Part shown: positions 36,193 through 49,463 of the stretch, one piece after another
How positions within the stretch are numbered: the first letter of the stretch is position 1
Layout of the letters: each line of letters opens with the position of its first letter
DNA from: a virus
Virus record (IMG/VR): IMGVR_UViG_3300037297_000065
Coordinates: 1-61,289 of that record
DNA: 61,289 nucleotides
Reading direction: 5' to 3' (one strand)
Notes under the pieces: model-generated
Databases searched by the model: none
Seen by the model: the letters and a program-made list of their open reading frames with translations, nothing else
Told to the model about the DNA's origin: nothing
Made by a program: the position numbers and the translations under genes

Positions 36193-38386
36193 AAAATTTA
36201 GTTTAGTAGAGGCGAAGGTTCAGAGCGTCCAGTCCTTTGACGACGGACACGACGGTACCGGGTCGATTAAAGACCTAATCGGTTTTTTTCAGCGCGGCGA
36301 AATCTTGCCGGCGTGGGGGTATCGCGACCGGCTGCGCCAACTCCGTGAGTATTATTTTCATCCGCGCAATTTGATGATACAGGGCGCGTTCGCTAATCTT
36401 GCGAAGAAACAATCGAGCGCGCCGTGGGAAGTTTCCGGTCCCGCCAACGCTTCGTATTGGCAGGATATTCTCGCCAATGCGCAATTTGGTGCGGGTTGGG
36501 ACGCTTTTGTTCAGATAATGCAGCTCAATTTTTTGCGGTATGACACCGGCGCATATATGGAGGTTATTGGCCCCGGTCCCGCCGATGGACCGTTGTGGGG
36601 TGCAGTAACGGGTGTTGCGGCGCTTGACCCGCTGCGCTGTTGGCCGACCGGTGACCCGGTGTACCCGGTCGTATATTATGACGATGACGGCGGCAAGCAC
36701 GTTATGCATCACTCCCGTGTCCATCAAATTGTGGATATGCTGGACGGTGATGCGCGCCATCCAGGATGGGGCACGTGCGCGCTAAGTCGCGCGATTTCGG
36801 CGGCGATGCGTGAAATTCTCATGGATCGCTATATCAATATGTCAGTTGATGACAAGCCGATGCCGGGCATGATGGTTGTCAGCGGCATGATGAAAGAGCA
36901 ATTTAACGTTGTGCTGCGCAGCTATATGAATCAAATCGGCAGCGATGACATGGGCGTCTTTGGGCAAATGATGATGTTGTTCGGTATTGACCCGGATATT
37001 TCACCGACGGTAACACCGGTGTCATTCTCGACTGCGCCGGAAAAGTTCGATTGGGTCAACTATGTTGAACTGGATGCCAAACTACTAGCACTTGCTATCG
37101 GCGTTGACCCGCAGGATATCCTACCGCTTTCGAGCGGTAACCTTGGCACCGGTACACAAACCGAAATCCTAGCAGCGCAGGCGCGCGGCAAAACCGAAGG
37201 GGATTTTCGCACAAAACTAACGCGGGCGATTAATTGGAAGGTATTGCCCGAATCCTACGAGTTTAAGATTACGTACCAAGACGACCAGAGCGATCTCACT
37301 CGCGCGCAAATTGCCGCACAGCATGCCGCGACAATTCAAACCGTTTCGGGTGCGCTTACCACGAATGAAATCCGCCGCTACCTCGTGGCGGTGGATGATA
37401 CGTTCCGCGATATCCTCTCCAATTCTGATGGCACGGTTCGCAACCTCGCGGACGCTGATCCCAAAACCGAGGCGCAGGTTATAGCGGATAGCGAATCGGA
37501 AACAGTAACGGAAGCGCCGGCGGTCGAAAACCCGCAGGTGGGAACCGCATCTCAAGACGAGGAAACGCGCCCGGAGAACATCACGGCAGAGGATCGACTC
37601 AACGGCGCGCAAATTGATGCGGCGGTTCGGATTTTGGATGGCGTAGTAGATGGAAGTCGCGTTCCAAGCGTAGCGGTTGAGTTGTTGCTTACGCTTGGCC
37701 TAAGCCGACCGCGCGCTGAACAAATGGTAGATGATACCGTAGCGGGTGTCGCCCCGATTACGGCAATCAACAAAGCGTTATATGCGACCGGATTTAAGGA
37801 ATGGAATCGGACCCGTGCGCAGTTCATCGATTCGCTTTCACGTACGCTCGCATTACCCACAACCGGCGTTCGTGCGCTCGCCGCACTTAAGCGCCGGTTG
37901 CGCCAATCGCTTTATCGGTGGGGACAGATGGCATTTGAGGATGGGTTGGCCGAGGGCGGCGTAGACTTGACGGAAATCACAGTAGCAGACCGCGGTATTG
38001 TATTCGCATGGTTGCAAGACCAGGAGAAATTTATCCAGAAGCTCGGCGACGAAATTTATCCCGGTCAATTAACGCCGGCGCAAGCGAGCATGAAGGCGTC
38101 GCTGTGGGCGAACAAAAGTTTACGTGAAATTCACCAGCAGGGTATCGTGCAGGCTGATAAGGCCGGGATGCGTAAATGGAAACTCGGCGCAACCGAACAA
38201 CACTGCGTGACATGCTTGGGATTGAATGGCCAGGTGCACCGTATGGAAACTTGGCAGCGCGCAGGATTGTTACCAGGAGTAGACAAGCTTGATTGTAAGG
38301 GCTACAATTGTGATTGTAAGCTCGATAAAACGACCGAAAAGGCACGAGGCAGCCTGACGGCGTATAAGTGGTACACTGCCGCTTAA
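36185..38386 (+). CDS. Portal protein fused to MuF/SPP1 gp7-like head-morphogenesis domain
   Basis: 733 aa directly after TerL; C-terminus HCVTCLGLNGQVHRME..CKGYNCDC like MuF-family Cys motif. Confidence 0.65.
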   Translation: MSKKFSLVEAKVQSVQSFDDGHDGTGSIKDLIGFFQRGEILPAWGYRDRLRQLREYYFHPRNLMIQGAFANLAKKQSSAPWEVSGPANASYWQDILANAQFGAGWDAFVQIMQLNFLRYDTGAYMEVIGPGPADGPLWGAVTGVAALDPLRCWPTGDPVYPVVYYDDDGGKHVMHHSRVHQIVDMLDGDARHPGWGTCALSRAISAAMREILMDRYINMSVDDKPMPGMMVVSGMMKEQFNVVLRSYMNQIGSDDMGVFGQMMMLFGIDPDISPTVTPVSFSTAPEKFDWVNYVELDAKLLALAIGVDPQDILPLSSGNLGTGTQTEILAAQARGKTEGDFRTKLTRAINWKVLPESYEFKITYQDDQSDLTRAQIAAQHAATIQTVSGALTTNEIRRYLVAVDDTFRDILSNSDGTVRNLADADPKTEAQVIADSESETVTEAPAVENPQVGTASQDEETRPENITAEDRLNGAQIDAAVRILDGVVDGSRVPSVAVELLLTLGLSRPRAEQMVDDTVAGVAPITAINKALYATGFKEWNRTRAQFIDSLSRTLALPTTGVRALAALKRRLRQSLYRWGQMAFEDGLAEGGVDLTEITVADRGIVFAWLQDQEKFIQKLGDEIYPGQLTPAQASMKASLWANKSLREIHQQGIVQADKAGMRKWKLGATEQHCVTCLGLNGQVHRMETWQRAGLLPGVDKLDCKGYNCDCKLDKTTEKARGSLTAYKWYTAA

Positions 38387-38397
38387 GAGAGGTCAAT

Positions 38398-38919
38398 ATG
38401 AAAACCTATAGATTGATTGATGGCAAGTGGGGGAATTGGCGCGCAGCGCAGTATGCATCCGAGTGTTTTATAGTTCGTCGCGATGTTCCTGATCGAAAAG
38501 ATGTAATTTTAGTAGACGCTAGTGGAGAGGTTGATACAGTCAAGCCGGACGGCGATACTTTCTGCTATAGCGAAGAAATAAGCGGCGCTTACTGCCCTGC
38601 TCTTCTACGCCACACAGCTCACCTCACTCTAGACTCCGATGAATTCCACGCGCTCGCTAACCTTAAATTCACTATTCCCGAAACGAATGTACAGGATGAT
38701 ATCTTCAGTGCACTCGCCAAACTCAAGGCGGCGCTTGAGCGTGCGGAGAGCAAGGAAGCGCCCCGCCACGCATATCTTATACGAAGGGACTTTTGTGGCC
38801 GGCAACGCGCCGTCTTGGAAATATCTAATGAGCGCATAACCGAAAACGAAAAAGGGTACTCTACCGATCTAAGCGACGTTTCGTTTGGCGGGGACAATGA
38901 ACCAGAGGTCACATCATGA
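38398..38919 (+). CDS. Hypothetical protein
   Basis: Start at MKTYRL behind AGAGGTCAAT; ends ..EVTS. Confidence 0.5.
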   Translation: MKTYRLIDGKWGNWRAAQYASECFIVRRDVPDRKDVILVDASGEVDTVKPDGDTFCYSEEISGAYCPALLRHTAHLTLDSDEFHALANLKFTIPETNVQDDIFSALAKLKAALERAESKEAPRHAYLIRRDFCGRQRAVLEISNERITENEKGYSTDLSDVSFGGDNEPEVTS

Positions 38920-39215
38920 AGGGCGGAACATTCAATACGATTCTAAATTGGCGCAAGGCATCAGATCGGGAACTTTTGTATGCTATAAAAGACCTGCGTC
39001 GATTTGATTATTATACAGATGAAATGCTTTTAATTCTTCATGAAATAGGATGGAATGAACGCTTTCTTTGCGCACCGCATGGAGATGATAACCCTGGAAA
39101 GTTGGCGTATGAAATCTATCAAGAACACACAAATTGTGACTTTATAAAGAAATATCGTTCGGTTGCATTGGGTAATATTAGTGTCTTTTTGAGGCAAACA
39201 GAGGTCACATCATGA
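38916..39215 (+). CDS. Hypothetical protein bracketed by 18-nt direct repeats
   Basis: 99-aa ORF; ends ..EVTS; CAGAGGTCACATCATGAA at both ends. Confidence 0.5.
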   Translation: MKGGTFNTILNWRKASDRELLYAIKDLRRFDYYTDEMLLILHEIGWNERFLCAPHGDDNPGKLAYEIYQEHTNCDFIKKYRSVALGNISVFLRQTEVTS

Positions 39216-40537
39216 AAATTTCCATTGTCGGGTTCGGTAAACTAGGCAGCGCGCTTGCCGCTGCTTTTGTGTCACGTCATGAGATCATAATTCCTATTGA
39301 AAACCCGGTTCGATACGCTTGGCCTTTTTGGGTGTATGCCTTTGATAAATCCTCTGATGCATTCACCGCCCCACTCCAATCTACCTACCCCGAACCGCAG
39401 GTAAGCGAATTATTGAGTGAAGCAAATGCGCGCGGCAATCTTGAACTCCACACGATGGACAACGCCGCCAAAATTACCGACACTAGTGTAACCTTTGTCA
39501 TCGTACCCACGCCATCGCTTTCTGATGGTAGTTTTGATACCAACTATTGCATTGAAGCGATGCTCTCCATCGGAGAAGCTATCAAAGACAAGGACGCCTA
39601 TCACCTCGTGGTGCTTTCGTCTACCGTCATGCCGAGCGACTGCGAGACTAAGATTATTCCCGCGCTTGAATTGGCAGCCGGGCGCAAGCTTGGGGATATG
39701 CTGGGTTTCTGTTATTCGCCGGCGTTTATTGCTCAGGGAAGCGTGGTAGATGACTTTCTTGATCCTGACTTCGTGCTGATTGGCGGAAACGAACTCGACG
39801 CCGAACGGCTCAAGATGATATACGAAGAGTTGAATCCTAGCTTTCCCGGCGAAGAGACGCAATACGCCTTGATGTCTATCTCCTCTGCCGAAGTAACTAA
39901 ACTCGCGCTTAATACCTACATCACGCTTAAAATCTCGTTCGCCAATACCCTCGCGGTGTTTTGCCACCGCACGCCGGGCGCGCATGTCGATGACGTAACC
40001 GGCGCGATGGGATTAGATAGCCGTGTTTCACCAAAGTTTTTTAAGGGTGCGACCGGGTACGGCGGGCCGTGTTTTCCGCGTGACGGACGCGCGATGATAA
40101 AGGCGCTTGACAAAGCCGAACTCTGGAACGGGTACGCGGGGATACCGTACATCAGCGTGAAGATTAATCAAGTGCATGTCGAATTCGTCGGGGAGTTGGC
40201 GCGGGAAGTGCTGCCGGAGGATGGCTCTGTTCTTGTCCTGGGTGCAGCCTATAAAGTCGGGACGCCCATTACCGAAGAAAGTTTCGGACTGGCGCTCGCT
40301 GACTACTTGGCGCTCGCCCGTGTTGAAGCCATGACCATTGACCCAACGCTTGACGGTTGGTCGGACTTCGACGCGCTCGTGAGGCAGGCCGACGTGATTG
40401 TTGTCGCGTTGCCCTACACGCATTTCCAGCATCTCCCCTATCAACCAGGGCAAACGATCATAGATTGTTGGCGCTCGCTTGACCCTAACGACCTTCCCTC
40501 CGGCGTGCGATATGTTCCACTGGGGGTAGGAAAATGA
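39212..40537 (+). CDS. Nucleotide-sugar dehydrogenase (UDP-glucose/GDP-mannose dehydrogenase family)
   Basis: VGFGKLGSALA Rossmann motif; GGPCFPRD catalytic-Cys motif; 441 aa. Confidence 0.7.
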   Translation: MKISIVGFGKLGSALAAAFVSRHEIIIPIENPVRYAWPFWVYAFDKSSDAFTAPLQSTYPEPQVSELLSEANARGNLELHTMDNAAKITDTSVTFVIVPTPSLSDGSFDTNYCIEAMLSIGEAIKDKDAYHLVVLSSTVMPSDCETKIIPALELAAGRKLGDMLGFCYSPAFIAQGSVVDDFLDPDFVLIGGNELDAERLKMIYEELNPSFPGEETQYALMSISSAEVTKLALNTYITLKISFANTLAVFCHRTPGAHVDDVTGAMGLDSRVSPKFFKGATGYGGPCFPRDGRAMIKALDKAELWNGYAGIPYISVKINQVHVEFVGELAREVLPEDGSVLVLGAAYKVGTPITEESFGLALADYLALARVEAMTIDPTLDGWSDFDALVRQADVIVVALPYTHFQHLPYQPGQTIIDCWRSLDPNDLPSGVRYVPLGVGK

Positions 40538-41175
40538 CATTACCCTTTGACCGCCCGGAGGCGCTCGCGCTCAACGAAGCGCGCATGAGTCGCGTCAAGA
40601 GCCTGGGCATCATTCAACCCGGTATGCGCGTGCTTGACATAGGTGCGGGCATAGGGCATTTGTCGAAATATCTGCTCGATTGGGGCTGCGAAGTCGTGGC
40701 ACTAGAGGGCAGGAAAACAAATGTCGAAGAGGCGCGGCGCAGGTATCCGGGGTTGGATATTCGGGTATGTGATGTTGAAAAAAGTTTTCCTGTATTTATC
40801 GTTGCATTTGATGTCGCCTTGATATTTGGGGCGCTCTACCACTTCAGAGACCCTGATAGTGCGTTTGGGCACATTCAATTTACGGCGCGCCCCTCGTTTA
40901 TTTTATTGAGCACGGTTGTCACTGATACTCAACAGTTGAAAAAGTTTCAGGTACTAGAAAACAATAACGTGGACCAAGCCCTTAACGGTTTGGGTTGTAG
41001 ACCATCACTATCATATATTGAAGAATATTTGATATATCGACTTGGCTATCACTCAATCGAAAATATATCACAACCCGAACACCCCGATTACCAATGGACA
41101 CCGCAAAATGATGGTCAGTGGCGACGTGACGGAAAGTTACTGAGGCGATTCTTTATATTCGAGAGGTCAAAATGA
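40534..41175 (+). CDS. Class I SAM-dependent methyltransferase
   Basis: Motif I VLDIGAGIGHLS; 213 aa. Confidence 0.7.
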   Translation: MTLPFDRPEALALNEARMSRVKSLGIIQPGMRVLDIGAGIGHLSKYLLDWGCEVVALEGRKTNVEEARRRYPGLDIRVCDVEKSFPVFIVAFDVALIFGALYHFRDPDSAFGHIQFTARPSFILLSTVVTDTQQLKKFQVLENNNVDQALNGLGCRPSLSYIEEYLIYRLGYHSIENISQPEHPDYQWTPQNDGQWRRDGKLLRRFFIFERSK

Positions 41176-41270
41176 GTAAATCACAATGGTGCGTGTTAAT
41201 GACTGTTGCGGTAATTGCCGCCGGTTTAGCCGTGTTGATAGATACGTTTTCGCGCCTAGCGGCGCAGTGA
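41172..41270 (+). CDS. Small TM peptide (32 aa)
   Basis: GAGAGGTCAAA SD, ATGA overlap; MSKSQWCVLMTVAVIAAGLAVLI. Confidence 0.35.
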   Translation: MSKSQWCVLMTVAVIAAGLAVLIDTFSRLAAQ

Positions 41271-41278
41271 GAGGCCAA

Positions 41279-42337
41279 ATGAAAATCTTAGTTGCGGGAG
41301 CCGGCGGTTTCATCGGCGGCCACCTAGTGGAGTTCTTGAAAGATAAAGGGCATTGGGTGCGCGGCGTTGACATCAAGCATCACGAACACCGCAAGGTACA
41401 AAACTGTGATGAGTTCGATCTCGCCGACCTGACGCACTACGGTGCGGCGGTCAATGCCTGCCGTGGTATCGACTGGGTGTTTCAGCTTGCCGCCGACATG
41501 GGCGGCATGGGCTACCTCGCCGAACACGACGCCGACATGATGCGTATCAATACGCGCATTAATTTGAATATGCTGGAAGCGGCGCGACAGTCTGGCGTTG
41601 AGCGGTATTTTTTCAGTTCATCGGCGTGCGTCTATCCCAACCGGGACGCCGAACACGCCGACCTCGCAGAGAGTGACGCCTACCCCGCCAACCCTCACAA
41701 CGAGTACGGCTGGGAAAAACTCTACACCGAACGCCTATGCGCCGTTTACAAGCGCGATTATGGTTTGGACACCCGCGCGGCGCGGTTCCATAACTGTTAT
41801 GGCGAATACGGCACATGGCGGGGCGGGCGCGAGAAAGCGCCGGCGGCGTTATGCCGGAAGGTTGCCACGAGTAAGTTAGCGCGCAATGACGGCGCGGCGG
41901 AGATTGATGTGTGGGGCGATGGGTCAGCGCTGCGGAGTTATATTCATGTGGATGATTTGATTGATGGAATATGGCGGCTGATGGGGATGAACGAGAGGGA
42001 TGTATATCAAGCAGCATCCCGATTGGGCGTACATATTACCGGTATAAGTATTGAATCTCGCGCAAAATTATACCAAGTTATGCTATCGCAACCTCTCAAC
42101 CTCGGCGATACTCACATGGTCACGGTTGACGAATTGGCCTATACGGTCGCTCGCACCGCCGGCGTTGAACTGGCGATTAATCATGTTGATGGCCCGGTGG
42201 GGGTACAGGCGCGTAATGCCAATATCGATTATGCGAAAGAATTACTGAACTGGGAGCCGCAAATTCAGCTTGAAGATGGAATTGCGCGGCTGTACCAATG
42301 GATAGAGGATGAGGTGCGTAATGCAAGTCTGGTTTGA
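41279..42337 (+). CDS. gme: GDP-mannose 3,5-epimerase-like SDR
   Basis: GAGGFIGGHL, LAADMGGMG, SSACVYP, GTWRGGREKAPAALCRK match remembered GME sequence block for block. Confidence 0.8.
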   Translation: MKILVAGAGGFIGGHLVEFLKDKGHWVRGVDIKHHEHRKVQNCDEFDLADLTHYGAAVNACRGIDWVFQLAADMGGMGYLAEHDADMMRINTRINLNMLEAARQSGVERYFFSSSACVYPNRDAEHADLAESDAYPANPHNEYGWEKLYTERLCAVYKRDYGLDTRAARFHNCYGEYGTWRGGREKAPAALCRKVATSKLARNDGAAEIDVWGDGSALRSYIHVDDLIDGIWRLMGMNERDVYQAASRLGVHITGISIESRAKLYQVMLSQPLNLGDTHMVTVDELAYTVARTAGVELAINHVDGPVGVQARNANIDYAKELLNWEPQIQLEDGIARLYQWIEDEVRNASLV

Positions 42338-42917
42338 CGTTGGCGCGCACATCGGGCAGTCTACCCTTGCCGCCGCGCGCGGCAACCCTGACCTGACCGT
42401 CTATGCCTTTGAACCAATCCCGGCGCTTGCTGCCGCGCTTCACGAAAAAGCGCCGGCGAATTATAAAGTGCAAAATCTTTCCGTCAGTGATACTAATGGT
42501 ACAGCAGAGTTTTACGTACACGGCGCGTCTGAGACCAGTTCCTTACTTCCATTCGATGCGCAGGGCAAAGCCGCCTGGGGCGCGGCTTTTGGCGATACCG
42601 AAACCATTCAAGTACCAACGATTCGACTTGATGCCTTTATGTATAAGCACCAGATAGCGGACGTTGACTATATCAAGGTTGACACGCAGGGCCACGACCT
42701 TGCGGTTGTGCGCGGCTTGGGTGAACGTATCAAAGATGTACGTGATATTCTGGTCGAGGTGCAATTGCAGCCACTCTATGTCGGCGCGAGCAAAAAAGAA
42801 GATGTGGTAAACTATATGAAAGCACGCGGTTTTTTGTTGGTGAGCGCGACGCCACAGACGCGCGGGAAAGAGGAGAATTTGTTATTTAGGAGAGGCGATG
42901 AAAGCCTACTTGTTTGA
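42321..42917 (+). CDS. FkbM-family methyltransferase
   Basis: FDVGAHIGQST..VYAFEP..N..VSDTNG pattern; start 42309 or 42321. Confidence 0.7.
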   Translation: MQVWFDVGAHIGQSTLAAARGNPDLTVYAFEPIPALAAALHEKAPANYKVQNLSVSDTNGTAEFYVHGASETSSLLPFDAQGKAAWGAAFGDTETIQVPTIRLDAFMYKHQIADVDYIKVDTQGHDLAVVRGLGERIKDVRDILVEVQLQPLYVGASKKEDVVNYMKARGFLLVSATPQTRGKEENLLFRRGDESLLV

Positions 42918-43620
42918 CGATCACACGGTTGAAATCGACCCACGCGCTGCCGAAATTGGCGGGTCATTTCAGGCACGTAAAAATGGACTACCCGCGGCGT
43001 GGGATGAAAAGACGCTTAAGTTTTTCTATGAACAAACGGCGAAGGTTGAATACCCAGTCGTGCTGGACGTGGGCGCAAACACCGGAAGCTTCACGTTGCT
43101 GGCAACGTTGCATCCGGGGATGAAGGTATGGGCGTTTGAGCCGAATCCGTTGGCGGCAGAAATTTTACACAATAACTGCGGAACAAACGATCTTTTAGAA
43201 GACCGCGTACAGATACAGGCGCATGCATTAGGCGAGCCGCATGACTATACTACTCTTTTCTGGAACCTTCATATACCAAAGAATAACCAAAGCGGCCTTG
43301 CCACACTCGCGCAAATCCCCGCGCGTTTTAAAGACTATACGACCGAAGTAACGATGCTGTTTACTATTGACGATTATAACCGCGATGGCGAGTGGTGTCA
43401 CTTCATCAAAATCGATACCGAGGGTTACGAGCTTTTCGTCTTGCGTGGCGGTGAGAAAACCATCAGATTTTACAGGCCTCAAATGCTTATTGAATACTAC
43501 GCGCCCAACACTCGCCAGTTTGGATACGAACCTAAAGCAATCACCGACTTACTTGAAAGCTGGGGCGCGAAGTGGGAGCAGGTCAGCAACGAGGATATAT
43601 GGGTGACGTGGGATGATTGA
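42898..43620 (+). CDS. FkbM-family methyltransferase
   Basis: VLDVGANTGSFT..VWAFEPNP pattern. Confidence 0.7.
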   Translation: MKAYLFDDHTVEIDPRAAEIGGSFQARKNGLPAAWDEKTLKFFYEQTAKVEYPVVLDVGANTGSFTLLATLHPGMKVWAFEPNPLAAEILHNNCGTNDLLEDRVQIQAHALGEPHDYTTLFWNLHIPKNNQSGLATLAQIPARFKDYTTEVTMLFTIDDYNRDGEWCHFIKIDTEGYELFVLRGGEKTIRFYRPQMLIEYYAPNTRQFGYEPKAITDLLESWGAKWEQVSNEDIWVTWDD

Positions 43621-44377
43621 CGACCTCCGCGCGTATTGGGATGCGCAACCCTGCAACGCCAACCACTCGAATGCCGAACCGAGCAGTTTGGAGTATTTCG
43701 AACAGGTTCGACGGCGTAAATATTTTGTAGAGCCGCATATCCCCGACTTCGCGCAGTTTCAGCGCTGGCGCGGGAAGCGCGTCCTTGACCTCGGCTGCGG
43801 ACTGGGTACAATGGCGGTCGATTTCGCACTTGCCGGCGCAGACGTAACCGCGCTGGATTTTTCATCCGAGTCGCTTTTTTTAGTAGCGCAGAATTTTCGC
43901 CGGCACGATCTGAACGGATTACTCGTTAACGCCAACATCGAAGAGCGTTTAGTCTATCTCTCCGGCTTCGATCTTGTCTTCGCATTCGGTGTCTTGCACC
44001 ATACTCCCCGCCCCGAACGCGCTATCGCCAACGCTTACCACTACCTAAAACCCGGCGGCGAATTCCGCCTCATGGTGTATCACAAATGGAGCACAAAGGC
44101 GGCGGCGGTAGCGTTGGGATTAGCGCGACCGGAGGCGCAGGCGGGATGTCCGCTCGCGCGCACGTATACGCGGCGCGGGGTACGGCGATTACTCAAGCGC
44201 GCGGGGTTTCGGGTTATTTCAATGCGGGTCGATCATATCTTCCCGTGGCGCATCGCGGACTATAAGGCGTATCGGTACGTCAAGGCGCGCCCTTGGCGAT
44301 GGCTACCAGCGCGCGCGTTCCGTTGGCTAGAAAAACATTTAGGCTGGCACCTCTTAGTAGTTGCCCGAAAGGATTGA
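43613..44377 (+). CDS. Class I SAM-dependent methyltransferase
   Basis: VLDLGCGLGTMAVDFA..DVTALDFS. Confidence 0.7.
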   Translation: MIDDLRAYWDAQPCNANHSNAEPSSLEYFEQVRRRKYFVEPHIPDFAQFQRWRGKRVLDLGCGLGTMAVDFALAGADVTALDFSSESLFLVAQNFRRHDLNGLLVNANIEERLVYLSGFDLVFAFGVLHHTPRPERAIANAYHYLKPGGEFRLMVYHKWSTKAAAVALGLARPEAQAGCPLARTYTRRGVRRLLKRAGFRVISMRVDHIFPWRIADYKAYRYVKARPWRWLPARAFRWLEKHLGWHLLVVARKD

Positions 44378-44379
44378 AC

Positions 44380-45162
44380 ATGCTGAGTATTTTCACGACC
44401 TGTAGACCATTTAACGACGAATCAGACGACGGGCGATATATTGCCGCCATTCAGCGGTATTGCCTACGCACACTCAAAGAAACCGGGCAAGAAGTTTTTT
44501 TGGTTTATGACGACGGCGGTGCATCCGAAGTCGCCGCCGAATTCAACTTCAAAACCCTCAAGCGCGTGCGCCGCCACGCCAGTGGTGCGCCGTCGCTGCG
44601 TTATGCGTTCAAGGCGGCAATTAAAGCGGCAACGCACGATGTTATCATGTACACGAATGCGGACATCATGTTTTTAGATGATTTGCTCCCCGCCGTCGAA
44701 GCACTTCAGTCACGTGGTTTTGAAAAATGGATGGCGACAGGTGGACGCTGGGATGTCAGTCCGTTGGGACTAAAACCGTGGCCGGTGGGCGAGACTGGCT
44801 GGCAGCGGATATTGCGCGACGAAATGCACCGTCAGAACCGCTTTCACGGCGGCGGCGCGCTCGATTATTTCATTTTCTCGCGTGGACTGTATGAAGACAT
44901 TCCGGCGTCGCTCGCTATCGGGGCGTGGAAATGGGACAACTGGATGATATGGCAAGCGCTGCAAAAGAATGCAGAGGTTATCGATACGAGTGCCGCAATT
45001 ACGGCTGTGCATCTTGACCATCCAAAAAAAGGCGCGAGAGAAAGCAGTGAAGCGGTCGCCGCCAACCATGCCGAATGTCAGGGTAAGGTCTGCACTACAA
45101 GCAACAGTCAATGGCGACTGACGAAAGAATTTGAATTTGTAAAACGCGACGAAACAGCATGA
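44380..45162 (+). CDS. Possible GT-A-fold glycosyltransferase
   Basis: 260 aa; IFTTCRPF..VFLVYDDGG..YTNADIMF (DxD-like); weak. Confidence 0.4.
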   Translation: MLSIFTTCRPFNDESDDGRYIAAIQRYCLRTLKETGQEVFLVYDDGGASEVAAEFNFKTLKRVRRHASGAPSLRYAFKAAIKAATHDVIMYTNADIMFLDDLLPAVEALQSRGFEKWMATGGRWDVSPLGLKPWPVGETGWQRILRDEMHRQNRFHGGGALDYFIFSRGLYEDIPASLAIGAWKWDNWMIWQALQKNAEVIDTSAAITAVHLDHPKKGARESSEAVAANHAECQGKVCTTSNSQWRLTKEFEFVKRDETA

Positions 45163-45199
45163 CAAAACGACGATCCTGGCGACGCGAGTTGGCGAAACG

Positions 45200-45436
45200 A
45201 TGGAAGCGATTTATTTGGAGGCCAAAGAAACGATGAATTCAACGACTGAGTGCGGGGTTGCATATATTCAATCAATCGACCTTTCTCCCGCTATCATTGA
45301 TATGTTTCTTGCCGACTACTGCGCGGAGAAAATCGGCATTGAAAAACAAATCATAGGATTAGAAACCCGTTACCGCGCACTATGCAAAATCATCAAGCGA
45401 CTCGAAGATGCGCGCAATACCACGGAGAATCAATGA
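45200..45436 (+). CDS. Hypothetical protein
   Basis: 78-aa ORF; stop overlaps next ATG. Confidence 0.35.
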   Translation: MEAIYLEAKETMNSTTECGVAYIQSIDLSPAIIDMFLADYCAEKIGIEKQIIGLETRYRALCKIIKRLEDARNTTENQ

Positions 45437-46212
45437 AACGCAAAGTGTTTGCTTCGGTATTTGCGACGATCATTCTTCTTGAGTGTTTATTGCGCGTGTT
45501 CGATCCCTACGGATACACTGCTTTACAGGCATCTCACTTCATTGTAAACGCCGGGTACATCACGCATCCAACACGCGGCTATGCGCTCGCTGACCGCTGT
45601 TACAAAAATTCACAGTGGGGGTATTGCGTCGAAAACGGCGCGCGCGTTGTGCCAGACACGAATTTAAACGCGCGTAAAACGCTTGTACTGGTGGGCGATA
45701 GCGTGTTGTTCGGTTGGGGTGTAAATAATGCGGATACTGCCGCCAACCTCATTGCTAAAGCGCTTCCCGATTGGCGCGTGATAAACGCCGCCGTGCCGGG
45801 ATATTCATCCGAGAATATCTATGCGACATTCGAGCAATACCGCGAAGTCGCCGACCTGACTGTATATCTCGTAACGCCAAACGATATTGAGGTAAGTTTT
45901 CCCCGCGACGTTTTTGAATACGCGCCTCGGTCAGGCGATATAATGACACTCGAATATTTGAGGATGATTTACGCATACGCGCAGCCGATTGAACATGCAC
46001 CGGTGCGCTATTTGAACGATCTATACAGGTTACATCAGGCGGGCGTGATTTTGGTCGGGTTCGAGGATAATCCAACGTTGCCCCACTATGCCTATAAAAT
46101 CTCACGGTACAGCGAGACGCTGTCGATGTTCGACGGACACCCATCGATAGAGGGGCAACGCGAGATCGCCGCGCAGATGATAGGGATTGTGCAGGCACTA
46201 ATTGCAACTTGA
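45433..46212 (+). CDS. Signal-anchored SGNH/GDSL hydrolase (glycan esterase/acyltransferase candidate)
   Basis: N-terminal TM; block I LVGDSVLFGWG, block III TPND, block V DGHPS. Confidence 0.6.
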   Translation: MKRKVFASVFATIILLECLLRVFDPYGYTALQASHFIVNAGYITHPTRGYALADRCYKNSQWGYCVENGARVVPDTNLNARKTLVLVGDSVLFGWGVNNADTAANLIAKALPDWRVINAAVPGYSSENIYATFEQYREVADLTVYLVTPNDIEVSFPRDVFEYAPRSGDIMTLEYLRMIYAYAQPIEHAPVRYLNDLYRLHQAGVILVGFEDNPTLPHYAYKISRYSETLSMFDGHPSIEGQREIAAQMIGIVQALIAT

Positions 46213-46309: not shown

Positions 46310-46330
46310 AAAACATAGAACGCCGCGAAA

Positions 46331-46364
46331 GCCACCGTTCATTAATTTGAACGGCGGCTTTTTT
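46331..46364 (+). terminator. Rho-independent terminator after first glycan block
   Basis: GCCACCGTTCA-TTAATT-TGAACGGCGGC then T6. Confidence 0.7.
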
Positions 46365-46379
46365 ATTTGGGGTTACCCG

Positions 46380-47318
46380 ATGCCCTATATGATCGTAGAC
46401 AGGCCAAACAAATATTGTGTGTATAAACGTGGCGCGAATGGTAGGCCAGTTGGGTCTGCGCTGGGGTGTCATGTCACACGCACGGGCGCTGTCTTGCAAA
46501 TCGCAGCAATTGAATCTTCGGAACGCAAAGCGGTTGACCCTGACGAATTGGATGAAGTCTTTGCCAAATACCACGATATCGTGAATATGTCAGCGTCGGA
46601 GCTGGAGCGGTGGGCAGAAACAGAATATAGCGGTTTGGCGAGTTTGAGCGACGCACCCATCAAACGCAACTTACGCCTACTGCGCACTCCGAAATCGGAA
46701 TGGATCGCGCGTGACATCACCGACGCCAACCGTACCATTGCATTTGTGTCTCGGATGCGTAATGCGGAACAGGGTAAACCGGTACGCGCGGATGTACCGT
46801 ACAGCAAGCGGGATATCAGTCTCATGAATTGGGCATATAACCCGCGTAAAGGTACACCCGTTGCGATGGAGTTGACGATTTTTAAACAGGCCGGCGGCTT
46901 GCGCCGCATGTTTTTGGTAACTTCAAATTCTTACGAAGATCGTGAATGTGAAACCATTACGACAAAGGCGCTGAGCGAATACGTTGAAAGTCAATGGGAG
47001 GGCGATGCATGGAAGGGGAATAATTTTTTATTGTTCGGGCATCGCGGCGCGCCCATCGGCGCTATCACGTTCGCCGAAATGATCGGCTCTTTTTTAGTAG
47101 AGGTCGCCGCAGAACTCGATACACCCTATGCGCGCAAGCGTTGGGATTATATCGAAGCGCATCCAGATATGGAATGGGGCGCATCTCACGGCTTTGATTT
47201 TGACCAAAATAAAAAAACGATTGATGGGGTTTACCATCATATTGAAAAATTTGAAACGACGGTTTTACCGCTAGTGCGCGCCGCCAACGCGCTGACATTA
47301 GCAGGAGTAATAGCATGA
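46380..47318 (+). CDS. Prohead protease with N-terminal DUF3140-like domain
   Basis: N-part VNMSASELERW..ISLMNWAYNP resembles DUF3140; C-part upstream of scaffold and MCP; start after terminator. Confidence 0.55.
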   Translation: MPYMIVDRPNKYCVYKRGANGRPVGSALGCHVTRTGAVLQIAAIESSERKAVDPDELDEVFAKYHDIVNMSASELERWAETEYSGLASLSDAPIKRNLRLLRTPKSEWIARDITDANRTIAFVSRMRNAEQGKPVRADVPYSKRDISLMNWAYNPRKGTPVAMELTIFKQAGGLRRMFLVTSNSYEDRECETITTKALSEYVESQWEGDAWKGNNFLLFGHRGAPIGAITFAEMIGSFLVEVAAELDTPYARKRWDYIEAHPDMEWGASHGFDFDQNKKTIDGVYHHIEKFETTVLPLVRAANALTLAGVIA

Positions 47319-48010
47319 GAATTGGACGGTTTGAAATTCTGAAGCGACAAATGAAGCTCGACGACGAAGCCGCAGAAAAGCTTAAAGAATCCTTTGAGAC
47401 TATCGCGGCGATTCTGGATAGCAACGGCATCGCGCATAAGCAACTCAAAATGGAAATTGACGAAGAAAAGGTTGCCGGTGTTATCGCCGAGGCCATCAAC
47501 GGAGCGATGGGCGAAGCAACGCCCGAAAACGTGGTGGACATTGCGCGCGGCATTGCCGCGCAACTTGCAGAAATGTTTATGTCGGCGGAAGTCGATGTGA
47601 CGGAAGAAGAGCAGATGGCAATGAGCGAAACGCCGGTGAGCGAGGATGATATGAAGGCGCTCGCTGAATTCCGCGAAAAGCAGTATCAGCAACAAGAGAA
47701 GCTTCATGTGTTGCTTGATCGCTTGATTGGCGAAACAGTTGATGACGCCGAAACGATCGAGATTTTGAGTGATAGCTACAAAGCTATCAAAGAAGAGCTT
47801 GGCGTGGTGAGCAACTTGGCGAGTGCGGTAAAAGCGCTCGCGGATGACATCAAAGGCGTTAAGCGACAACTCGCAATGCGTCCGCGCGCATCCATATCAG
47901 CCGATACACTGGCGCGCCCTGATGAGGTCTCAGAAGAGGTTAAAAAAGAAATGGAAAACACCGATAAGGTCTTTGACGAATACCTGGGCCTTTGGCTGAA
48001 AAAGGAATAA
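47315..48010 (+). CDS. Scaffolding protein
   Basis: 231 aa, acidic, helical heptad-like; between protease and MCP. Confidence 0.6.
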   Translation: MRIGRFEILKRQMKLDDEAAEKLKESFETIAAILDSNGIAHKQLKMEIDEEKVAGVIAEAINGAMGEATPENVVDIARGIAAQLAEMFMSAEVDVTEEEQMAMSETPVSEDDMKALAEFREKQYQQQEKLHVLLDRLIGETVDDAETIEILSDSYKAIKEELGVVSNLASAVKALADDIKGVKRQLAMRPRASISADTLARPDEVSEEVKKEMENTDKVFDEYLGLWLKKE

Positions 48011-48014
48011 TTCA

Positions 48015-49454
48015 ATGGAAGAAAAAGCTTTCACCACAGAACAAATTAAAGAGCTTGCGGCGATTTTCAACGAAGTGCGAAAGAACACGCCGGCAAGTAC
48101 CACGCTTCCGGCGGGTGGCCAACTGCATGGACCGCTAACCGACAGTTCGGGTAACTGGTCGGTTTTGTCGGGCCTGGGCGTGCGTCCTGAAATGTGGTCG
48201 GCGATGACTCGCCCGCGTTCGTTGGTGCGCGCCCTGCAAGCACCGATGCGTAGTTTCAACTATAATGAACTGCTCGAAATTCAGACCGGCGTAACTCCCG
48301 GCAGTGGCACAAACGCAACCGGCTTTTGCGCCGATCCGCCCGACGTGACCGGCGATATGAAAGTCTGCCGGCAGAATATCGTCTTCGGCGACTATTACGG
48401 CAAGACCAAATTGAATTCCATTCCGCAGGTTGGGCAGGTGCGCAACTACGCAGATGTAACGCGCCAGATCATCAACGCGGGGCCGGGCGAAAATCCACTT
48501 ATCCCCGATTTTATGTACCGCCTTGACGATACGCAATCGGTGCTGCAATACAACCTATGGCTTTTTGGTCAAAGTGTTGAATTGACACTGGAGCGCGTCC
48601 TTATCCAGGGTAACAGCACATTAACCAGCGTCAACACGCAACTTGGGTTTATTTCTGAGTTTGACGGTCTTGACCGTCTTATCAAAACGGGGTATACCGA
48701 TGCCGTGACCAGCAAGGCGTGCTCGGCGGTTGATAGTTACGTGTTGGAGTTTGAGGCCGCGTTGGGAAATACCATTCCCGGCGACGCTGAGAGTCGATAC
48801 ATCCAAGACGCGCTGAATGATATGATCTATGCGCTCAACACACGCGCCGAAGACAACATGGTCAATGACTTCGTGTTGGCGGTTGTGATGCGCAAAGAAC
48901 TGTTCCGCCGTATTACCGATTACATCGCGTGCAACTATGCGAGTTCGCGATGTAGCGTCAACGGCACGAACACGCGCCTGAACATCGAGGGAAGCGATTT
49001 CATCCGGCTTCGTGACGGAATGCGAACCGGAAAATACATCCTGGTGGATGGTGTTGAATACCCGGTCATTTTCTCAACCGGCATCGATCTGGAAGGCACG
49101 GCGCAGGATACATTCCGCACGGATATCTATTTCGTGCCCATCAGTGGCAAGGGGCGTCCGCTCACATATCTTGAATACTTCCCGATGGACAACCCCTACG
49201 CAACGGAGGCGTCGAACTTCCCGGTCGAGGGACGACGCGCCGCGTACAATAACGGGCTGTGGATGGCCGGCGTTGAAGAAACCGCCATGTGCAACGAATA
49301 TCATTTCGCATCTCGAATGCGCTTGATTTTGACGCCGTTCCTGGCGGGCAAAATCACCGACATCACCTTCACCTACGATACCGACATGACACGCGATCCG
49401 TACAGTGGCGAGTCGATGTACGCGGATGGTGGCGTAAGCTACCGCACAAGCTAA
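48015..49454 (+). CDS. Major capsid protein
   Basis: 479 aa after scaffold; followed by strong terminator. Confidence 0.75.
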   Translation: MEEKAFTTEQIKELAAIFNEVRKNTPASTTLPAGGQLHGPLTDSSGNWSVLSGLGVRPEMWSAMTRPRSLVRALQAPMRSFNYNELLEIQTGVTPGSGTNATGFCADPPDVTGDMKVCRQNIVFGDYYGKTKLNSIPQVGQVRNYADVTRQIINAGPGENPLIPDFMYRLDDTQSVLQYNLWLFGQSVELTLERVLIQGNSTLTSVNTQLGFISEFDGLDRLIKTGYTDAVTSKACSAVDSYVLEFEAALGNTIPGDAESRYIQDALNDMIYALNTRAEDNMVNDFVLAVVMRKELFRRITDYIACNYASSRCSVNGTNTRLNIEGSDFIRLRDGMRTGKYILVDGVEYPVIFSTGIDLEGTAQDTFRTDIYFVPISGKGRPLTYLEYFPMDNPYATEASNFPVEGRRAAYNNGLWMAGVEETAMCNEYHFASRMRLILTPFLAGKITDITFTYDTDMTRDPYSGESMYADGGVSYRTS

Positions 49455-49463
49455 CGACCTTAA

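What the first reader, a model, noticed from the sequence alone, without database searches (positions are those of the whole stretch)
39212..46212. Sugar-nucleotide and methyltransferase block inserted between portal-MuF and the capsid protease
Eleven co-directional, abutting or overlapping ORFs sit inside the head-gene cluster.
- A nucleotide-sugar dehydrogenase (VGFGKLG; GGPCFPRD).
- A class I SAM methyltransferase.
- A 32-aa TM peptide.
- A GDP-mannose 3,5-epimerase-like SDR (LAADMGGMG, SSACVYP, GTWRGGREKAPAALCRK). It carries an insertion of about 30 aa (RDVYQAASRLGVHITGISIESRAKLYQVMLSQ) that I do not recall in GME.
- Two FkbM-type methyltransferases and another class I methyltransferase.
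- A possible GT-A protein, a 78-aa hypothetical protein and a signal-anchored SGNH hydrolase.

The block ends with its own terminator. The enzymology predicts an L-galactose/L-gulose- and uronate-type glycan that is multiply O-methylated and perhaps O-acylated. Its position inside the late structural operon favours virion (capsid/tail) glycosylation. As far as I recall, that is known from few phages (some mycobacteriophages) and from chloroviruses. Alternatives are remodelling of the host envelope glycan during infection, or DNA hypermodification.
Basis: partly seen in the sequence, partly recalled or inferred. Interest (0 to 1): 0.8.

Follow-up and report, generated by a model that had tools for sequence, protein, structure and literature searches.

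The report
Phage sugar-tailoring block feeding capsid-linked glycosyltransferases
A temperate phage carries, inside its head-gene cluster, a 7-kb set of sugar-making and sugar-methylating genes that most likely works with four glycosyltransferase genes next to the capsid gene to coat the virus particle with a decorated glycan; so far this has been shown experimentally only for a few mycobacteriophages and giant algal viruses.

Summary
Window 39212-46212 carries ten (not eleven) co-directional, abutting or overlapping ORFs. They are a nucleotide-sugar 6-dehydrogenase, a GDP-mannose 3,5-epimerase (GME)-like SDR with a real ~33-aa insertion, two FkbM and two class I methyltransferases, a GT-A-fold protein, an SGNH-like protein with an N-terminal anchor, and two small ORFs. 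A strong terminator follows.

Four glycosyltransferase genes and a DUF1360 membrane protein sit directly after the capsid gene (49566-54309).
- In every relative with sequence there, the first of these glycosyltransferases (GT2a) follows the capsid gene and has co-diverged with it (r = 0.82).
- Relatives fill the neighbouring space with other glycan-tailoring enzymes: O-methyltransferases, sulfotransferases, aminotransferases.
- In most relatives the portal-protease slot is empty. One holds a sulfotransferase and one an FkbM methyltransferase.
- Fusion proteins link GT2a to FkbM and Methyltransf_24 domains.
- In mycobacteriophage Corndog, the glycosylation cassette occupies the same portal-protease slot.

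Best reading (confidence about 0.55): the block is the accessory sugar-supply and tailoring half of a cytoplasmic virion-glycosylation system. Remodelling of the host envelope is the main rival (about 0.22). Nothing has been tested biochemically.

The parts
38368..39215 (+). Two ORFs of unknown function (183 aa and 99 aa) at the start of the variable portal-protease slot
   Evidence: No Pfam or PHROG hit. The 183-aa ORF is present in L017; no tblastn match to it in L001 or L019. The 99-aa ORF is absent from L017 and is flanked by the duplicated junction AGAGGTCACATCATGA at 38904 and 39200.
39212..40537 (+). Nucleotide-sugar 6-dehydrogenase (UDP-Glc/GDP-Man dehydrogenase family), 441 aa; substrate unresolved
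   Evidence: PF03721 2.8e-21, PF00984 1.6e-20, PF03720 weak. TIGR03026 188.6 bits (cut-off 189.8). Best PDB match 3vtf UDP-glucose dehydrogenase, 123 bits; AlgD GDP-mannose dehydrogenase 94 bits. GGPCFPRD is aligned to GGSCFPKD.
40534..41175 (+). Class I SAM methyltransferase, 213 aa
   Evidence: Methyltransf_23/11/31/25 at E 1e-9 to 3e-11. Only 66% identical to the L017 copy while flanking genes are 93-98% identical, so it has been exchanged by recombination.
41172..41270 (+). 32-aa ORF with one TM-like segment; doubtful gene
   Evidence: Kyte-Doolittle maximum 2.31. A 55-aa version sits at this position in L017 and none in L019.
41279..42337 (+). GDP-mannose 3,5-epimerase-like extended SDR, 352 aa, with a two-helix insertion at about residues 238-270
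   Evidence: 282 bits to GME 2c59, split at query 237/271. SSAC, YGWEK and GGREKAPAALCRK motifs are conserved. In the AlphaFold2 model (pLDDT 87.9) the insertion forms helices 239-248 and 258-269. The insertion varies within the phage clade and is absent from bacterial homologues.
42321..43620 (+). Two FkbM-family methyltransferases (198 aa and 240 aa, overlapping by 20 nt)
   Evidence: PF05050 at 1.9e-25 and 2.8e-19. TIGR01444 at 96.2 and 86.2 bits against a cut-off of 37.7.
43613..44377 (+). Second class I SAM methyltransferase, 254 aa
   Evidence: Methyltransf_23/25/12/11 at E 1e-16 to 6e-19.
44380..45162 (+). GT-A-fold nucleotide-sugar transferase of an unnamed small family, 260 aa
   Evidence: Pfam GT2 only E = 8e-4. 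23 homologues, all unannotated, with an invariant N-A-D motif. AlphaFold2 pLDDT 90.8. Foldseek matches K4CP, the WrtF fucosyltransferase, heparosan synthase and SpsA at E about 1e-6, TM about 0.55, and viral GT-A proteins.
45200..45436 (+). 78-aa hypothetical protein
   Evidence: No family hit. Conserved in L017 (100% identity) and L019 (57%), where it lies after the SGNH gene rather than before it.
45433..46212 (+). SGNH-like hydrolase/acyl-esterase with an N-terminal hydrophobic anchor, 259 aa
   Evidence: Lipase_GDSL_2 at E = 5e-4, below threshold. A profile hits TesA at E = 1.4e-3 over blocks I-II. GDS, ND and DGH are conserved in the 35%-identical L019 homologue. TM-like residues 4-24 follow MKRK.
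46327..46366 (+). Intrinsic terminator closing the block, preceded by two 25-nt direct repeats (46256-46280 and 46285-46309)
   Evidence: Hairpin AAAGCCACCGTTCA/TGAACGGCGGCTTT followed by TTTTTTATTT. The 46205-46385 stretch folds at -53.2 kcal/mol, z = -3.84. Conserved in L017 and, with sequence changes, in L019.
46380..49454 (+). Head-morphogenesis core: putative prohead protease, scaffold, major capsid protein (by position; not verified by profile)
   Evidence: Collinear and homologous in all relatives. No Pfam, PHROG or PDB sequence hit for the capsid protein or the protease domain. The protease domain has an invariant His and Ser.
49462..49532 (+). Conserved branched hairpin plus U-run after the capsid gene, then an 8-nt tandem repeat (49541-49564) carrying SD+ATG units
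   Evidence: Folds at -33.7 kcal/mol, z = -2.0. L019 carries a compensatory GAGG/CCTC to GGGG/CCCC change. Repeat copy number is 3 in the window and 2 in L017 and L019.
49566..50672 (+). GT2a: GT2-family glycosyltransferase with a conserved C-terminal CCG...GDVL...YPR domain; the lineage-wide partner of the capsid gene
   Evidence: PF00535 at 5e-11. Follows the capsid gene in every relative with sequence there. Pairwise identities of the capsid protein and GT2a correlate at r = 0.82, Mantel 0/2000. 185 representatives at E <= 1e-30. Fusions to FkbM and Methyltransf_24 domains exist.
50629..52340 (+). Two further glycosyltransferase-like genes (271 aa, start codon uncertain; 299 aa with a Glyco_trans_1_2 domain)
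   Evidence: PF13524 at 0.0086 and 2.4e-9. The 271-aa protein is conserved after GT2a in L004, L005, L006, L009, L013, L014 and L015.
52337..54037 (+). GTd: GT2 + Glyco_trans_1_2 (CgeB-like) fusion, 566 aa
   Evidence: PF00535 at 1.4e-13 and PF13524 at 3.4e-10. Conserved in L003, L004, L006 and L013.
54034..54309 (+). DUF1360 small membrane protein that closes the glycosyltransferase cassette
   Evidence: PF07098 at 8.3e-7. TM-like residues 38-73. Conserved after GTd in L003, L004, L006 and L013 and after GT2a in L016.

Best explanation
**Proposed system.** The block is the accessory, clade-specific half of a split, phage-encoded, cytoplasmic glycosylation system.

**Conserved half.** This is the cassette of soluble glycosyltransferases immediately after the major capsid gene: GT2a, a 271-aa GT, a 299-aa GT and the GT2+CgeB-like fusion.

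**Role of the block (inferred).** It supplies unusual donors and tailors the product.
- The GME-like enzyme would convert host GDP-mannose into GDP-L-galactose or GDP-L-gulose.
- The dehydrogenase would make an NDP-hexuronate.
- The GT-A protein would add one further sugar.
- The four SAM methyltransferases would O-methyl-cap the glycan.

**Timing and target (inferred).** All of these genes are transcribed with the late head genes. The most likely acceptors are virion proteins, above all the capsid protein, giving a clade-specific glycan coat.

**What is shown and what is not.**
- Shown: gene identities, the insertion, synteny, co-divergence and the fusion proteins.
- Inferred: the substrates, that the two halves act in one pathway, and the virion as target.
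- The SGNH-like protein may not belong to the pathway.
For: 1. GT2a follows the capsid gene in 11 of 11 first-round relatives with downstream sequence, and in all 18 closest IMG/VR homologues. Capsid-family genes lie upstream in 26 loci.
2. Pairwise identities of the capsid protein and GT2a correlate (r = 0.82, Mantel 0/2000) and have the same mean, 0.34. GT2a is therefore a vertically inherited core head-module gene, not a transient insert.
3. Of 139 ORFs within 7 kb downstream of the capsid gene in 26 loci, the Pfam matches were: GT2 33, Glyco_trans_1_2 16, Methyltransf_24 12, GT1 7, CmcI 4, epimerase 3, DegT 2, FkbM 2, hexapeptide 2, PIG-L 2. Sulfotransferases and an NTP-transferase also occur.
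4. The portal-protease slot holds a sulfotransferase in L001 and an FkbM methyltransferase in L003, and is empty in most relatives.
5. Fusion proteins join GT2a to FkbM (P0176) and to Methyltransf_24 + GT2 + Glyco_trans_1_2 (P0167).
6. All glycosyltransferases and methyltransferases lack TM segments. No priming lipid-carrier glycosyltransferase, flippase or polymerase was seen.
7. The genes are translationally coupled to late genes.
8. The same block sits in the same slot in three further contigs. Its enzymes are 61-78% identical in L019, where the capsid protein is 92% identical.
9. In Corndog, an O-methyltransferase-like gene (gp35; matches MycF and CalS11) and gp36-38 lie between the gene I take to be the portal (gp34; assigned by position, not annotated in the record) and the protease (gp39). 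A published source names gp38 as essential for capsid glycosylation.
Against: - There is no biochemical or proteomic evidence, and no acceptor site has been identified.
- The capsid-protein assignment rests on position only.
- The SGNH-like protein has a positive-inside N-terminal anchor, which implies a periplasmic domain. A DUF1360 membrane protein is conserved at the end of the glycosyltransferase cassette.
- A strong terminator separates the block from the protease-capsid genes.
- Cyanomyoviruses carry GME-like + UGDH + GT clusters outside their head modules, and the literature attributes these to host-surface modification.
- Soluble glycosyltransferases could also act on host undecaprenyl-linked intermediates at the inner face of the membrane.
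- Correlated divergence is expected for any two vertically inherited genes, so it shows that GT2a is a core gene, not what its target is.
Confidence: 0.55

Rival explanations
1. Host-envelope glycan remodelling. The soluble enzymes would modify host LPS, capsule or S-layer glycan precursors at the cytoplasmic face during infection. The host's own export machinery would display the altered glycan, and the anchored SGNH enzyme would edit it outside the membrane. The effect would be to block superinfection or to stop progeny sticking to debris.
For: - The phage is temperate: integrase and an RDF-like protein are present.
- The SGNH-like protein has an N-terminal anchor, and DUF1360 is a membrane protein.
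- Cyanomyoviruses such as P-TIM68 carry an epimerase, a UGDH and glycosyltransferases away from structural genes, and the literature calls these cell-wall modification genes.
Against: - The genes sit in the late operon behind terminators, far from the integrase and immunity region.
- There are no GtrA/B/C-like proteins, Wzx/Wzy, acyltransferase_3 or priming glycosyltransferase.
- GT2a has stayed beside the capsid gene and co-diverged with it down to 18% pairwise identity of the capsid protein. That is atypical for host-interaction cargo.
Confidence: 0.22
2. Another cytoplasmic product. The enzymes would glycosylate a non-virion phage or host protein, or would build a soluble methylated oligo- or polysaccharide or a small-molecule glycoside during infection.
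For: - The enzymes are soluble, and no acceptor has been identified.
- By my recollection, FkbM-type methyltransferases also act in cytoplasmic methylated polysaccharide and polyketide pathways. This was not tested here.
Against: This reading gives no reason for the conserved adjacency to the capsid gene or for the parallel with Corndog.
Confidence: 0.12
3. DNA hypermodification. The glycosyltransferases would glycosylate modified bases in phage DNA, and the block would supply the donors.
For: - The window encodes a dCTP deaminase-like protein (21526-22128) and a Vut_1/YhhQ-like transporter.
- Phage glycosyltransferases that hypermodify DNA are known (Pyle et al. 2024, as cited in PMC12619734).
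Against: - No thymidylate-synthase-type hydroxymethylase, base kinase or DpdA-like enzyme was found at E <= 1e-3 among the ORFs scanned.
- The glycosyltransferases sit in the head module, not the replication module.
- Four O-methyltransferases and a GME would be unusual for DNA glycans.
Confidence: 0.04

Closest known systems
Mycobacteriophage virion glycosylation (Che8, Corndog, Myrna; Freeman et al. 2023, read only through citing papers PMC12363180, PMC12619734 and PMC11256854)
   Same: - Phage-encoded glycosyltransferases modify capsid and tail-tube subunits.
- In Corndog, the cassette gp35 (sugar O-methyltransferase-like) to gp38 lies between the gene I take to be the portal (gp34, assigned by position) and the capsid maturation protease (gp39). 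This is the same slot as the block here.
   Different: - There is no detectable sequence similarity (phmmer E <= 1 finds nothing).
- The system here is split around the protease-scaffold-capsid genes.
- It has five glycosyltransferase-type genes, four methyltransferases of other families, and its own sugar-nucleotide enzymes (GME-like, dehydrogenase).
- The host is unknown and not evidently an actinobacterium.
- Glycosylation is unproven.
Chlorovirus PBCV-1 autonomous capsid glycosylation (A064R GT-GT-methyltransferase, A061L; PMC9614988)
   Same: - Soluble, cytoplasmic, virus-encoded glycosyltransferases act together with SAM methyltransferases that O-methylate terminal sugars of the capsid glycan.
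- Multi-domain GT-methyltransferase fusions also exist in the GT2a family.
   Different: - PBCV-1 is a eukaryotic giant virus with N-linked glycans on a double-jelly-roll capsid protein.
- Its genes are expressed early and are scattered around the genome.
- No homology to the window's proteins was shown here.
Cyanomyovirus carbohydrate gene clusters (for example P-TIM68 gp177-185, S-SSM7, S-SCSM2R)
   Same: A GME-like epimerase (41-42% identical over its full length) and a UDP-glucose dehydrogenase homologue lie with glycosyltransferases within a few kb.
   Different: - These clusters sit among metabolic and replication genes of T4-like genomes, not in the head module.
- The literature interprets them as host cell-wall modification genes, untested.
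- The cyanophage epimerases were not examined for the helical insertion. No FkbM methyltransferase is annotated in the P-TIM68 stretch shown.
GDP-mannose 3,5-epimerase of plants and bacteria (PDB 2c59, 8sg0)
   Same: - 282-bit match across the whole fold.
- The SSAC, YxxxK and GGREKAP motifs are conserved.
- Bacterial homologues are about 50% identical.
   Different: - A 33-aa two-helix insertion after the helix ending RLMG, a 3-aa RND insert and a 3-aa deletion. All three features are confined to the phage clade (they appear together in P0001-P0004), and the insertion varies within it.
- Activity is untested.
Gtr-type and O-acetylase serotype-conversion cassettes of temperate phages (from general knowledge)
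   Same: A temperate phage that carries glycan-modifying genes.
   Different: - There are no GtrA, GtrB or GtrC-like integral membrane proteins.
- The genes are not next to int/att.
- They are embedded in the late operon.

Membership tests
GDP-mannose 3,5-epimerase (extended SDR, EC 5.1.3.18) | Sequence clusters with characterised GMEs rather than with GDP-fucose synthase, GalE or other SDRs | tested here: met
   282 bits to 2c59 and 280 to 8sg0, against at most 101 bits to GDP-L-fucose synthases. The NCBIfam GDP-fucose synthase model scores only 121 bits against a cut-off of 500.
GDP-mannose 3,5-epimerase (extended SDR, EC 5.1.3.18) | NAD-binding GxxGxxG, the S/Y/K triad, and the Cys (SSAC) / Lys (GGREKAP) acid-base pair. 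Residue roles are recalled from the A. thaliana GME literature. | tested here: met
   GAGGFIG, SSACVYP, YGWEK and GGREKAPAALCRK align to the GME residues, and these columns are invariant among 66 homologues.
GDP-mannose 3,5-epimerase (extended SDR, EC 5.1.3.18) | Converts GDP-D-mannose into GDP-L-galactose or GDP-L-gulose | not testable with these tools
   Needs an enzyme assay. The effect of the 33-aa insertion is unknown.
UDP-glucose/GDP-mannose 6-dehydrogenase family | Three-domain architecture with a catalytic Cys in GGxCFxKD | tested here: met
   PF03721 and PF00984 are strong; PF03720 is weak (21.6 bits against 30). GGPCFPRD aligns to GGSCFPKD of 3vtf.
UDP-glucose/GDP-mannose 6-dehydrogenase family | Assignment to a substrate-specific equivalog (UDP-Glc, GDP-Man, UDP-ManNAc, UDP-GlcNAc) | tested here: not met
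   All equivalog models score far below their cut-offs (AglM 180 against 670; TuaD 105 against 700). The generic TIGR03026 model scores 188.6 against 189.8.
FkbM-family methyltransferases | Match to TIGR01444 / PF05050 above the curated cut-off | tested here: met
   96.2 and 86.2 bits against 37.7; PF05050 90.4 and 70.3 bits against 22.7.
GT-A glycosyltransferases | Rossmann-like GT-A fold with an acidic DxD-type motif | tested here: met
   A confident model (pLDDT 90.8) matches GT-A enzymes at E about 1e-6 and TM 0.52-0.58. An N-A-D motif is invariant. No CAZy or Pfam family could be assigned (GT2 at E = 8e-4, below threshold).
SGNH/GDSL hydrolases | Conserved blocks I (GDS), II (G), III (GxND) and V (DxxH), and a profile match above threshold | tested here: inconclusive
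   GDS and ND are conserved. Block V reads D-G-H rather than DxxH. PF13472 scores 21 bits against 32.9. A profile hits TesA at E = 1.4e-3 over blocks I-II only.
Phage-encoded virion glycosylation systems (mycobacteriophage type) | Phage-encoded glycosyltransferases genetically linked to virion structural genes | tested here: met
   The glycosyltransferase cassette follows the capsid gene throughout the lineage, and the block occupies the portal-protease slot as in Corndog.
Phage-encoded virion glycosylation systems (mycobacteriophage type) | Glycans covalently attached to capsid or tail-tube subunits | not testable with these tools
   Needs virions or recombinant procapsids and mass spectrometry.
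Phage-encoded virion glycosylation systems (mycobacteriophage type) | Homology to the characterised glycosyltransferases (Corndog gp36-38) | tested here: not met
   phmmer at E <= 1 finds no match between Corndog gp34-41 and the window's proteins.
Gtr-type O-antigen seroconversion | GtrA flippase, a bactoprenol-linked GtrB and a multi-TM GtrC, located next to int/att | tested here: not met
   No multi-TM glycosyltransferase and no such Pfam hits. The integrase is at 8977-9987, about 30 kb away.
Phage DNA glycosylation (hypermodification) | A base hydroxymethylase or other base-activating enzyme together with glycosyltransferases in the nucleotide-metabolism module | tested here: not met
   No such family was found among the ORFs scanned. 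Only a dCTP deaminase-like protein and a Vut_1-like protein turned up. Many ORFs remain unannotated.

The most novel reading that the evidence does not exclude
A large, uncultivated lineage of tailed phages has capsid glycosylation built into its head module. At least 185 GT2a representatives at E <= 1e-30 exist in a library clustered at 50% identity. The glycan would diversify through exchangeable tailoring cassettes (methyl, sulfate, amino-sugar, uronate and L-hexose modules). This would be an O-antigen-like, hypervariable 'serotype' locus for virus particles. The 7-kb block would be its most elaborate known module, and the first in a phage to bring its own GDP-L-galactose/L-gulose supply for virion decoration.
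Probability: 0.4. Interest if true: 0.82.

Novelty: new variant of a known kind. Interest (0 to 1): 0.64.

Why it matters
- **Scope.** Covalent glycosylation of phage particles has so far been shown for a few mycobacteriophages, where it alters antibody recognition. If this lineage glycosylates its capsids, the trait is widespread and old. The accessory modules would make sulfated, methylated, L-sugar- and uronate-containing coats.
- **Consequences.** This bears on phage stability, adsorption to non-host surfaces, grazing and immune recognition, and on the design of therapeutic phages.
- **Testability.** The question can be tested directly. The head genes plus the two cassettes (about 15 kb) could be expressed heterologously and the procapsids analysed by mass spectrometry.
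- **New reagents.** The locus also offers a GME variant with a helical insertion, an unnamed GT-A family and a capsid-linked GT2 family with a new C-terminal domain.

Tried and rejected
**Searches that found nothing**
- The INPHARED phage collection holds no relative of the capsid protein and only weak partial hits for GT2a and GTd. No cultured relative could be used.
- PDB sequence and profile searches gave nothing for the capsid protein, GT2a or the protease domain. The capsid and protease labels therefore rest on gene order.
- The word-indexed homologue search found only the SGNH-like protein itself. No alignment-based structure could be made for it.
- Freeman et al. 2023 is not in the held library, so it was used only through citing papers.
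- Sigma-70 promoter and terminator scans were not enriched over shuffles (26 against 18.7; 28 against 24.9). Only the two individually strong, conserved hairpins were kept.

**Ideas rejected**
- The block as recent foreign DNA: its GC content (0.47-0.56) matches the rest of the genome, and it is inherited within a clade.
- The GME insertion as an intein or domain gain: it is too short, forms two helices, and varies or is absent in close relatives.
- A tRNA-like stretch seen by eye in the L019 intergenic region: ARAGORN did not call it.
- The portal-protease slot as a site for glycan cargo only: L036 carries a pentapeptide-repeat protein there.

Full report
**1. What the window is**

The 61,289-nt window is a circularly closed phage assembly. 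Bases 1-127 repeat at 61163-61289. The same genome also occurs as a Logan contig from SRR12668987 and as a JGI contig.

It encodes:
- an integrase (8977-9987, minus strand), a ParM-like protein, an RDF-like protein and a DnaB helicase;
- a large terminase (34840-36192);
- a 733-aa portal-like protein (36185-38386; Pfam portal only E = 0.0019);
- then, after the region in question, a protease-like gene, a scaffold gene and a 479-aa capsid gene.

The capsid and protease labels rest on order, size and conservation. No profile or PDB sequence search confirmed them. The 'MuF' label for the portal C-terminus was also not confirmed.

**2. The observation**

Between 39212 and 46212 there are ten + strand ORFs, not eleven. 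They are joined by 4-20-nt overlaps or by gaps of 2-37 nt.

| ORF | Assignment | Key evidence |
|---|---|---|
| 39212-40537 | Nucleotide-sugar 6-dehydrogenase | Catalytic-Cys motif present; no equivalog model passes, so the substrate is open |
| 40534-41175 | Class I methyltransferase | |
| 41172-41270 | 32-aa ORF | Doubtful gene |
| 41279-42337 | GME-like SDR | 282 bits to A. thaliana GME against about 100 bits for GDP-fucose synthases; catalytic motifs conserved |
| 42321-42917, 42898-43620 | Two FkbM methyltransferases | Above curated cut-offs |
| 43613-44377 | Class I methyltransferase | |
| 44380-45162 | GT-A-fold protein | pLDDT 90.8; Foldseek to K4CP, WrtF, heparosan synthase and SpsA; only 23 unannotated homologues |
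| 45200-45436 | 78-aa ORF | No family hit |
| 45433-46212 | SGNH-like protein | Weak hits; GDS, ND and DGH conserved; MKRK plus a hydrophobic N-terminus conserved in character |

The 167-nt spacer after the block holds a strong hairpin with a U-tract (46327-46366; fold z = -3.84). It is conserved in relatives.

**3. The GME insertion**

The match to GME breaks at query residues 237/271, where GME has only three residues.
- The insertion is present in a 93%-identical homologue.
- A 70%-identical homologue has a different sequence of similar length at the same place.
- It is almost absent from a 77%-identical homologue (326 aa) and absent from a 60%-identical one.
- All sampled bacterial GMEs, about 50% identical, lack it.
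- The model places two helices there at pLDDT about 70-80.

It is therefore a real, clade-restricted, variable surface elaboration. Nothing indicates a new activity.

**4.

Directly after the capsid gene, behind a conserved hairpin with a U-run, lie five more genes:
- a GT2 glycosyltransferase (GT2a, 49566-50672);
- a 271-aa glycosyltransferase-like protein;
- a 299-aa Glyco_trans_1_2 protein;
- a 566-aa GT2 + Glyco_trans_1_2 fusion;
- a 91-aa DUF1360 membrane protein.

None of the glycosyltransferases or methyltransferases has a TM segment.

**5. Comparative evidence**

*Adjacency to the capsid gene.* Capsid-based scans of IMG/VR, metagenomes and GTDB genomes gave relatives at 36-70% identity. 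A GT2a homologue followed the capsid gene in every relative that had downstream sequence. The 271-aa GT, the fusion GT and DUF1360 also recur. A reverse scan with a GT2a alignment found 80 loci. A capsid-protein profile hits upstream in 26 of them, including all 18 closest.

*Co-divergence.* Across 29 genomes, pairwise identities of the capsid protein and GT2a correlate (r = 0.82; Mantel 0/2000). The means are equal, 0.34. GT2a is therefore a core head-module gene.

*Variable tailoring genes.*
- Relatives carry variable genes between the conserved glycosyltransferases: Methyltransf_24/CmcI-type sugar O-methyltransferases, sulfotransferases, an NTP-transferase and a DegT aminotransferase.
- A census covered 139 ORFs in 26 loci. 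It was dominated by glycosyltransferases and sugar-tailoring families. No priming glycosyltransferase, flippase or polymerase was among the families listed.

*The portal-protease slot.* It is empty in most relatives. It holds a Sulfotransfer_1 protein in L001 and L008, an FkbM methyltransferase in L003, and a pentapeptide-repeat protein in L036.

*The block in other genomes.*
- The full block recurs in the same slot in three other contigs: L017, L018 and L019.
- In L019 the capsid protein is 92% identical, but the block enzymes are only 61-78% identical and the SGNH-like protein 33%.
- In L017 one methyltransferase has been exchanged (66% identical, against 93-98% for flanking genes).
- In L017, small ORFs are present or absent exactly at gene junctions.

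*Size of the family and fusions.* The GT2a family has 185 representatives at E <= 1e-30 in a library clustered at 50% identity. It includes fusions of GT2a with FkbM, and of GT2a with Methyltransf_24, GT2 and Glyco_trans_1_2. These fusions tie methyltransferases of the kinds found in the block and in relatives to the capsid-linked glycosyltransferases.

**6. Mechanism**

The best-supported model is one split cytoplasmic pathway expressed with the late genes.
- The conserved glycosyltransferases build a glycan.
- The block adds donors: GDP-L-Gal or GDP-L-Gul from host GDP-mannose, and an NDP-uronate.
- The block also adds one extra transferase and up to four O-methylations.

The virion, above all the capsid protein, is the most likely acceptor, for three reasons:
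- the long-term linkage of GT2a to the capsid gene;
- the absence of lipid-carrier and export functions;
- two precedents, described in section 7.

The gene identities, synteny, co-divergence and fusions are shown. The substrates, the coupling of the two halves and the acceptor are inferred. The conserved C-terminal GGVSYRT(S/A) of the capsid protein is a speculative acceptor candidate only.

**7. Comparison with known systems**

*Corndog.*
- Mycobacteriophage Corndog is the nearest analogue. A published source names gp38 as essential for capsid glycosylation.
- gp35-gp38 lie between the gene I take to be the portal (gp34, assigned by position) and the capsid maturation protease (gp39).
- gp35 matches the sugar O-methyltransferases MycF, CalS11 and NovP.
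- There is no sequence similarity to the window's proteins. This is positional and functional analogy, not family membership.

*Chlorovirus PBCV-1.* It uses soluble glycosyltransferases and methyltransferases (A064R, A061L) on its capsid glycan.

*Cyanomyoviruses.* They carry GME-like (41-42% identical), UGDH and glycosyltransferase clusters outside their head modules. The literature interprets these as host cell-wall modification. Phage-borne GME and UGDH are therefore not new, and the rival reading has precedent.

**8. Rivals**

- *Host-envelope remodelling (0.22).* It is favoured by the temperate lifestyle, the anchored SGNH-like protein, the DUF1360 membrane protein and the cyanophage analogy. 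It is disfavoured by the late-operon position, the lack of Gtr/Wzx/Wzy-type components and the capsid-gene linkage.
- *Another cytoplasmic product (0.12).* It cannot be excluded.
- *DNA hypermodification (0.04).* It has no base-activating enzyme to support it, although a dCTP deaminase-like gene and a Vut_1-like gene exist elsewhere in the window.

**9. Verdict**

The finding is real and more interesting in context than in isolation. It is an elaborate, clade-specific tailoring module of a widespread, undescribed, capsid-linked glycosylation locus.

It is a new variant of a known kind of system. No biochemistry has been done, the host is unknown, and the only taxonomic pointer is a distant relative binned with a Thiotrichales MAG. 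Interest 0.64.

Noticed in passing
window 49566-54309: Four glycosyltransferase-type genes and a DUF1360 membrane protein lie directly after the capsid gene, outside the finding's coordinates. They turned out to be the conserved core of the system.
   Followed up: yes
window 46256-46280 and 46285-46309: Two exact 25-nt direct repeats (CGCCACCGCTCAAAGAGAGCGCCGC) lie between the SGNH gene and the terminator. Each forms a small hairpin. They are identical in L017 and degenerate in L019. Their function is unknown.
   Followed up: partly
window 49541-49564: An 8-nt tandem repeat, TATGAGGC, occurs three times just upstream of the GT2a start codon (two copies in L017 and L019). Each unit carries a GAGG Shine-Dalgarno sequence and an ATG that opens a 3-codon mini-ORF ending in ATGA. 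Copy number varies between relatives.
   Followed up: partly
window 38904-38919 and 39200-39215: The 99-aa ORF (38916-39215) is flanked by an exact 16-nt duplicated junction (AGAGGTCACATCATGA) and is absent from the 96%-identical relative L017. It looks like a single-gene insertion or deletion at a repeated gene boundary.
   Followed up: partly
L017 11043-11255, 11819-12052, 12764-13129; L019 10962-11171: Close relatives carry extra small ORFs exactly at gene junctions inside the block. Three of them (L017 70 aa and 77 aa, L019 69 aa) share a Cys/His-rich C..C...H...C.W motif. The window lacks all of them.
   Followed up: no
window 21526-22128; probably 25255-25749: The first ORF is dCTP deaminase-like (E = 4.8e-34). 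A Vut_1/YhhQ-like multi-TM protein, a Macro domain and a pentapeptide-repeat protein are also encoded among the non-structural ORFs of the window. They may relate to nucleotide or DNA modification, or to counter-defence.
   Followed up: no
window 1-127 and 61163-61289: The two ends of the window are identical over 127 nt. The contig is therefore a circularly closed assembly of a 61,162-bp genome.
   Followed up: yes
window 9000-14000: The region holding the integrase, a 465-aa unknown protein and a ParM-like actin has GC 0.57-0.61, against about 0.50 elsewhere. The phage carries both an integrase and a plasmid-type segregation ATPase.
   Followed up: no
L017 1-1928: The relative from IMG 3300035150 encodes an N6/N4 DNA methyltransferase that, according to the precomputed Pfam hits, is interrupted by intein and LAGLIDADG domains.
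   Followed up: no
L001 7187-7945: The closest block-less relative (capsid protein 70% identical) carries a Sulfotransfer_1 protein in the portal-protease slot. L006 carries two sulfotransferase-like genes after its capsid gene. Some members of the lineage may therefore make sulfated glycans.
   Followed up: partly
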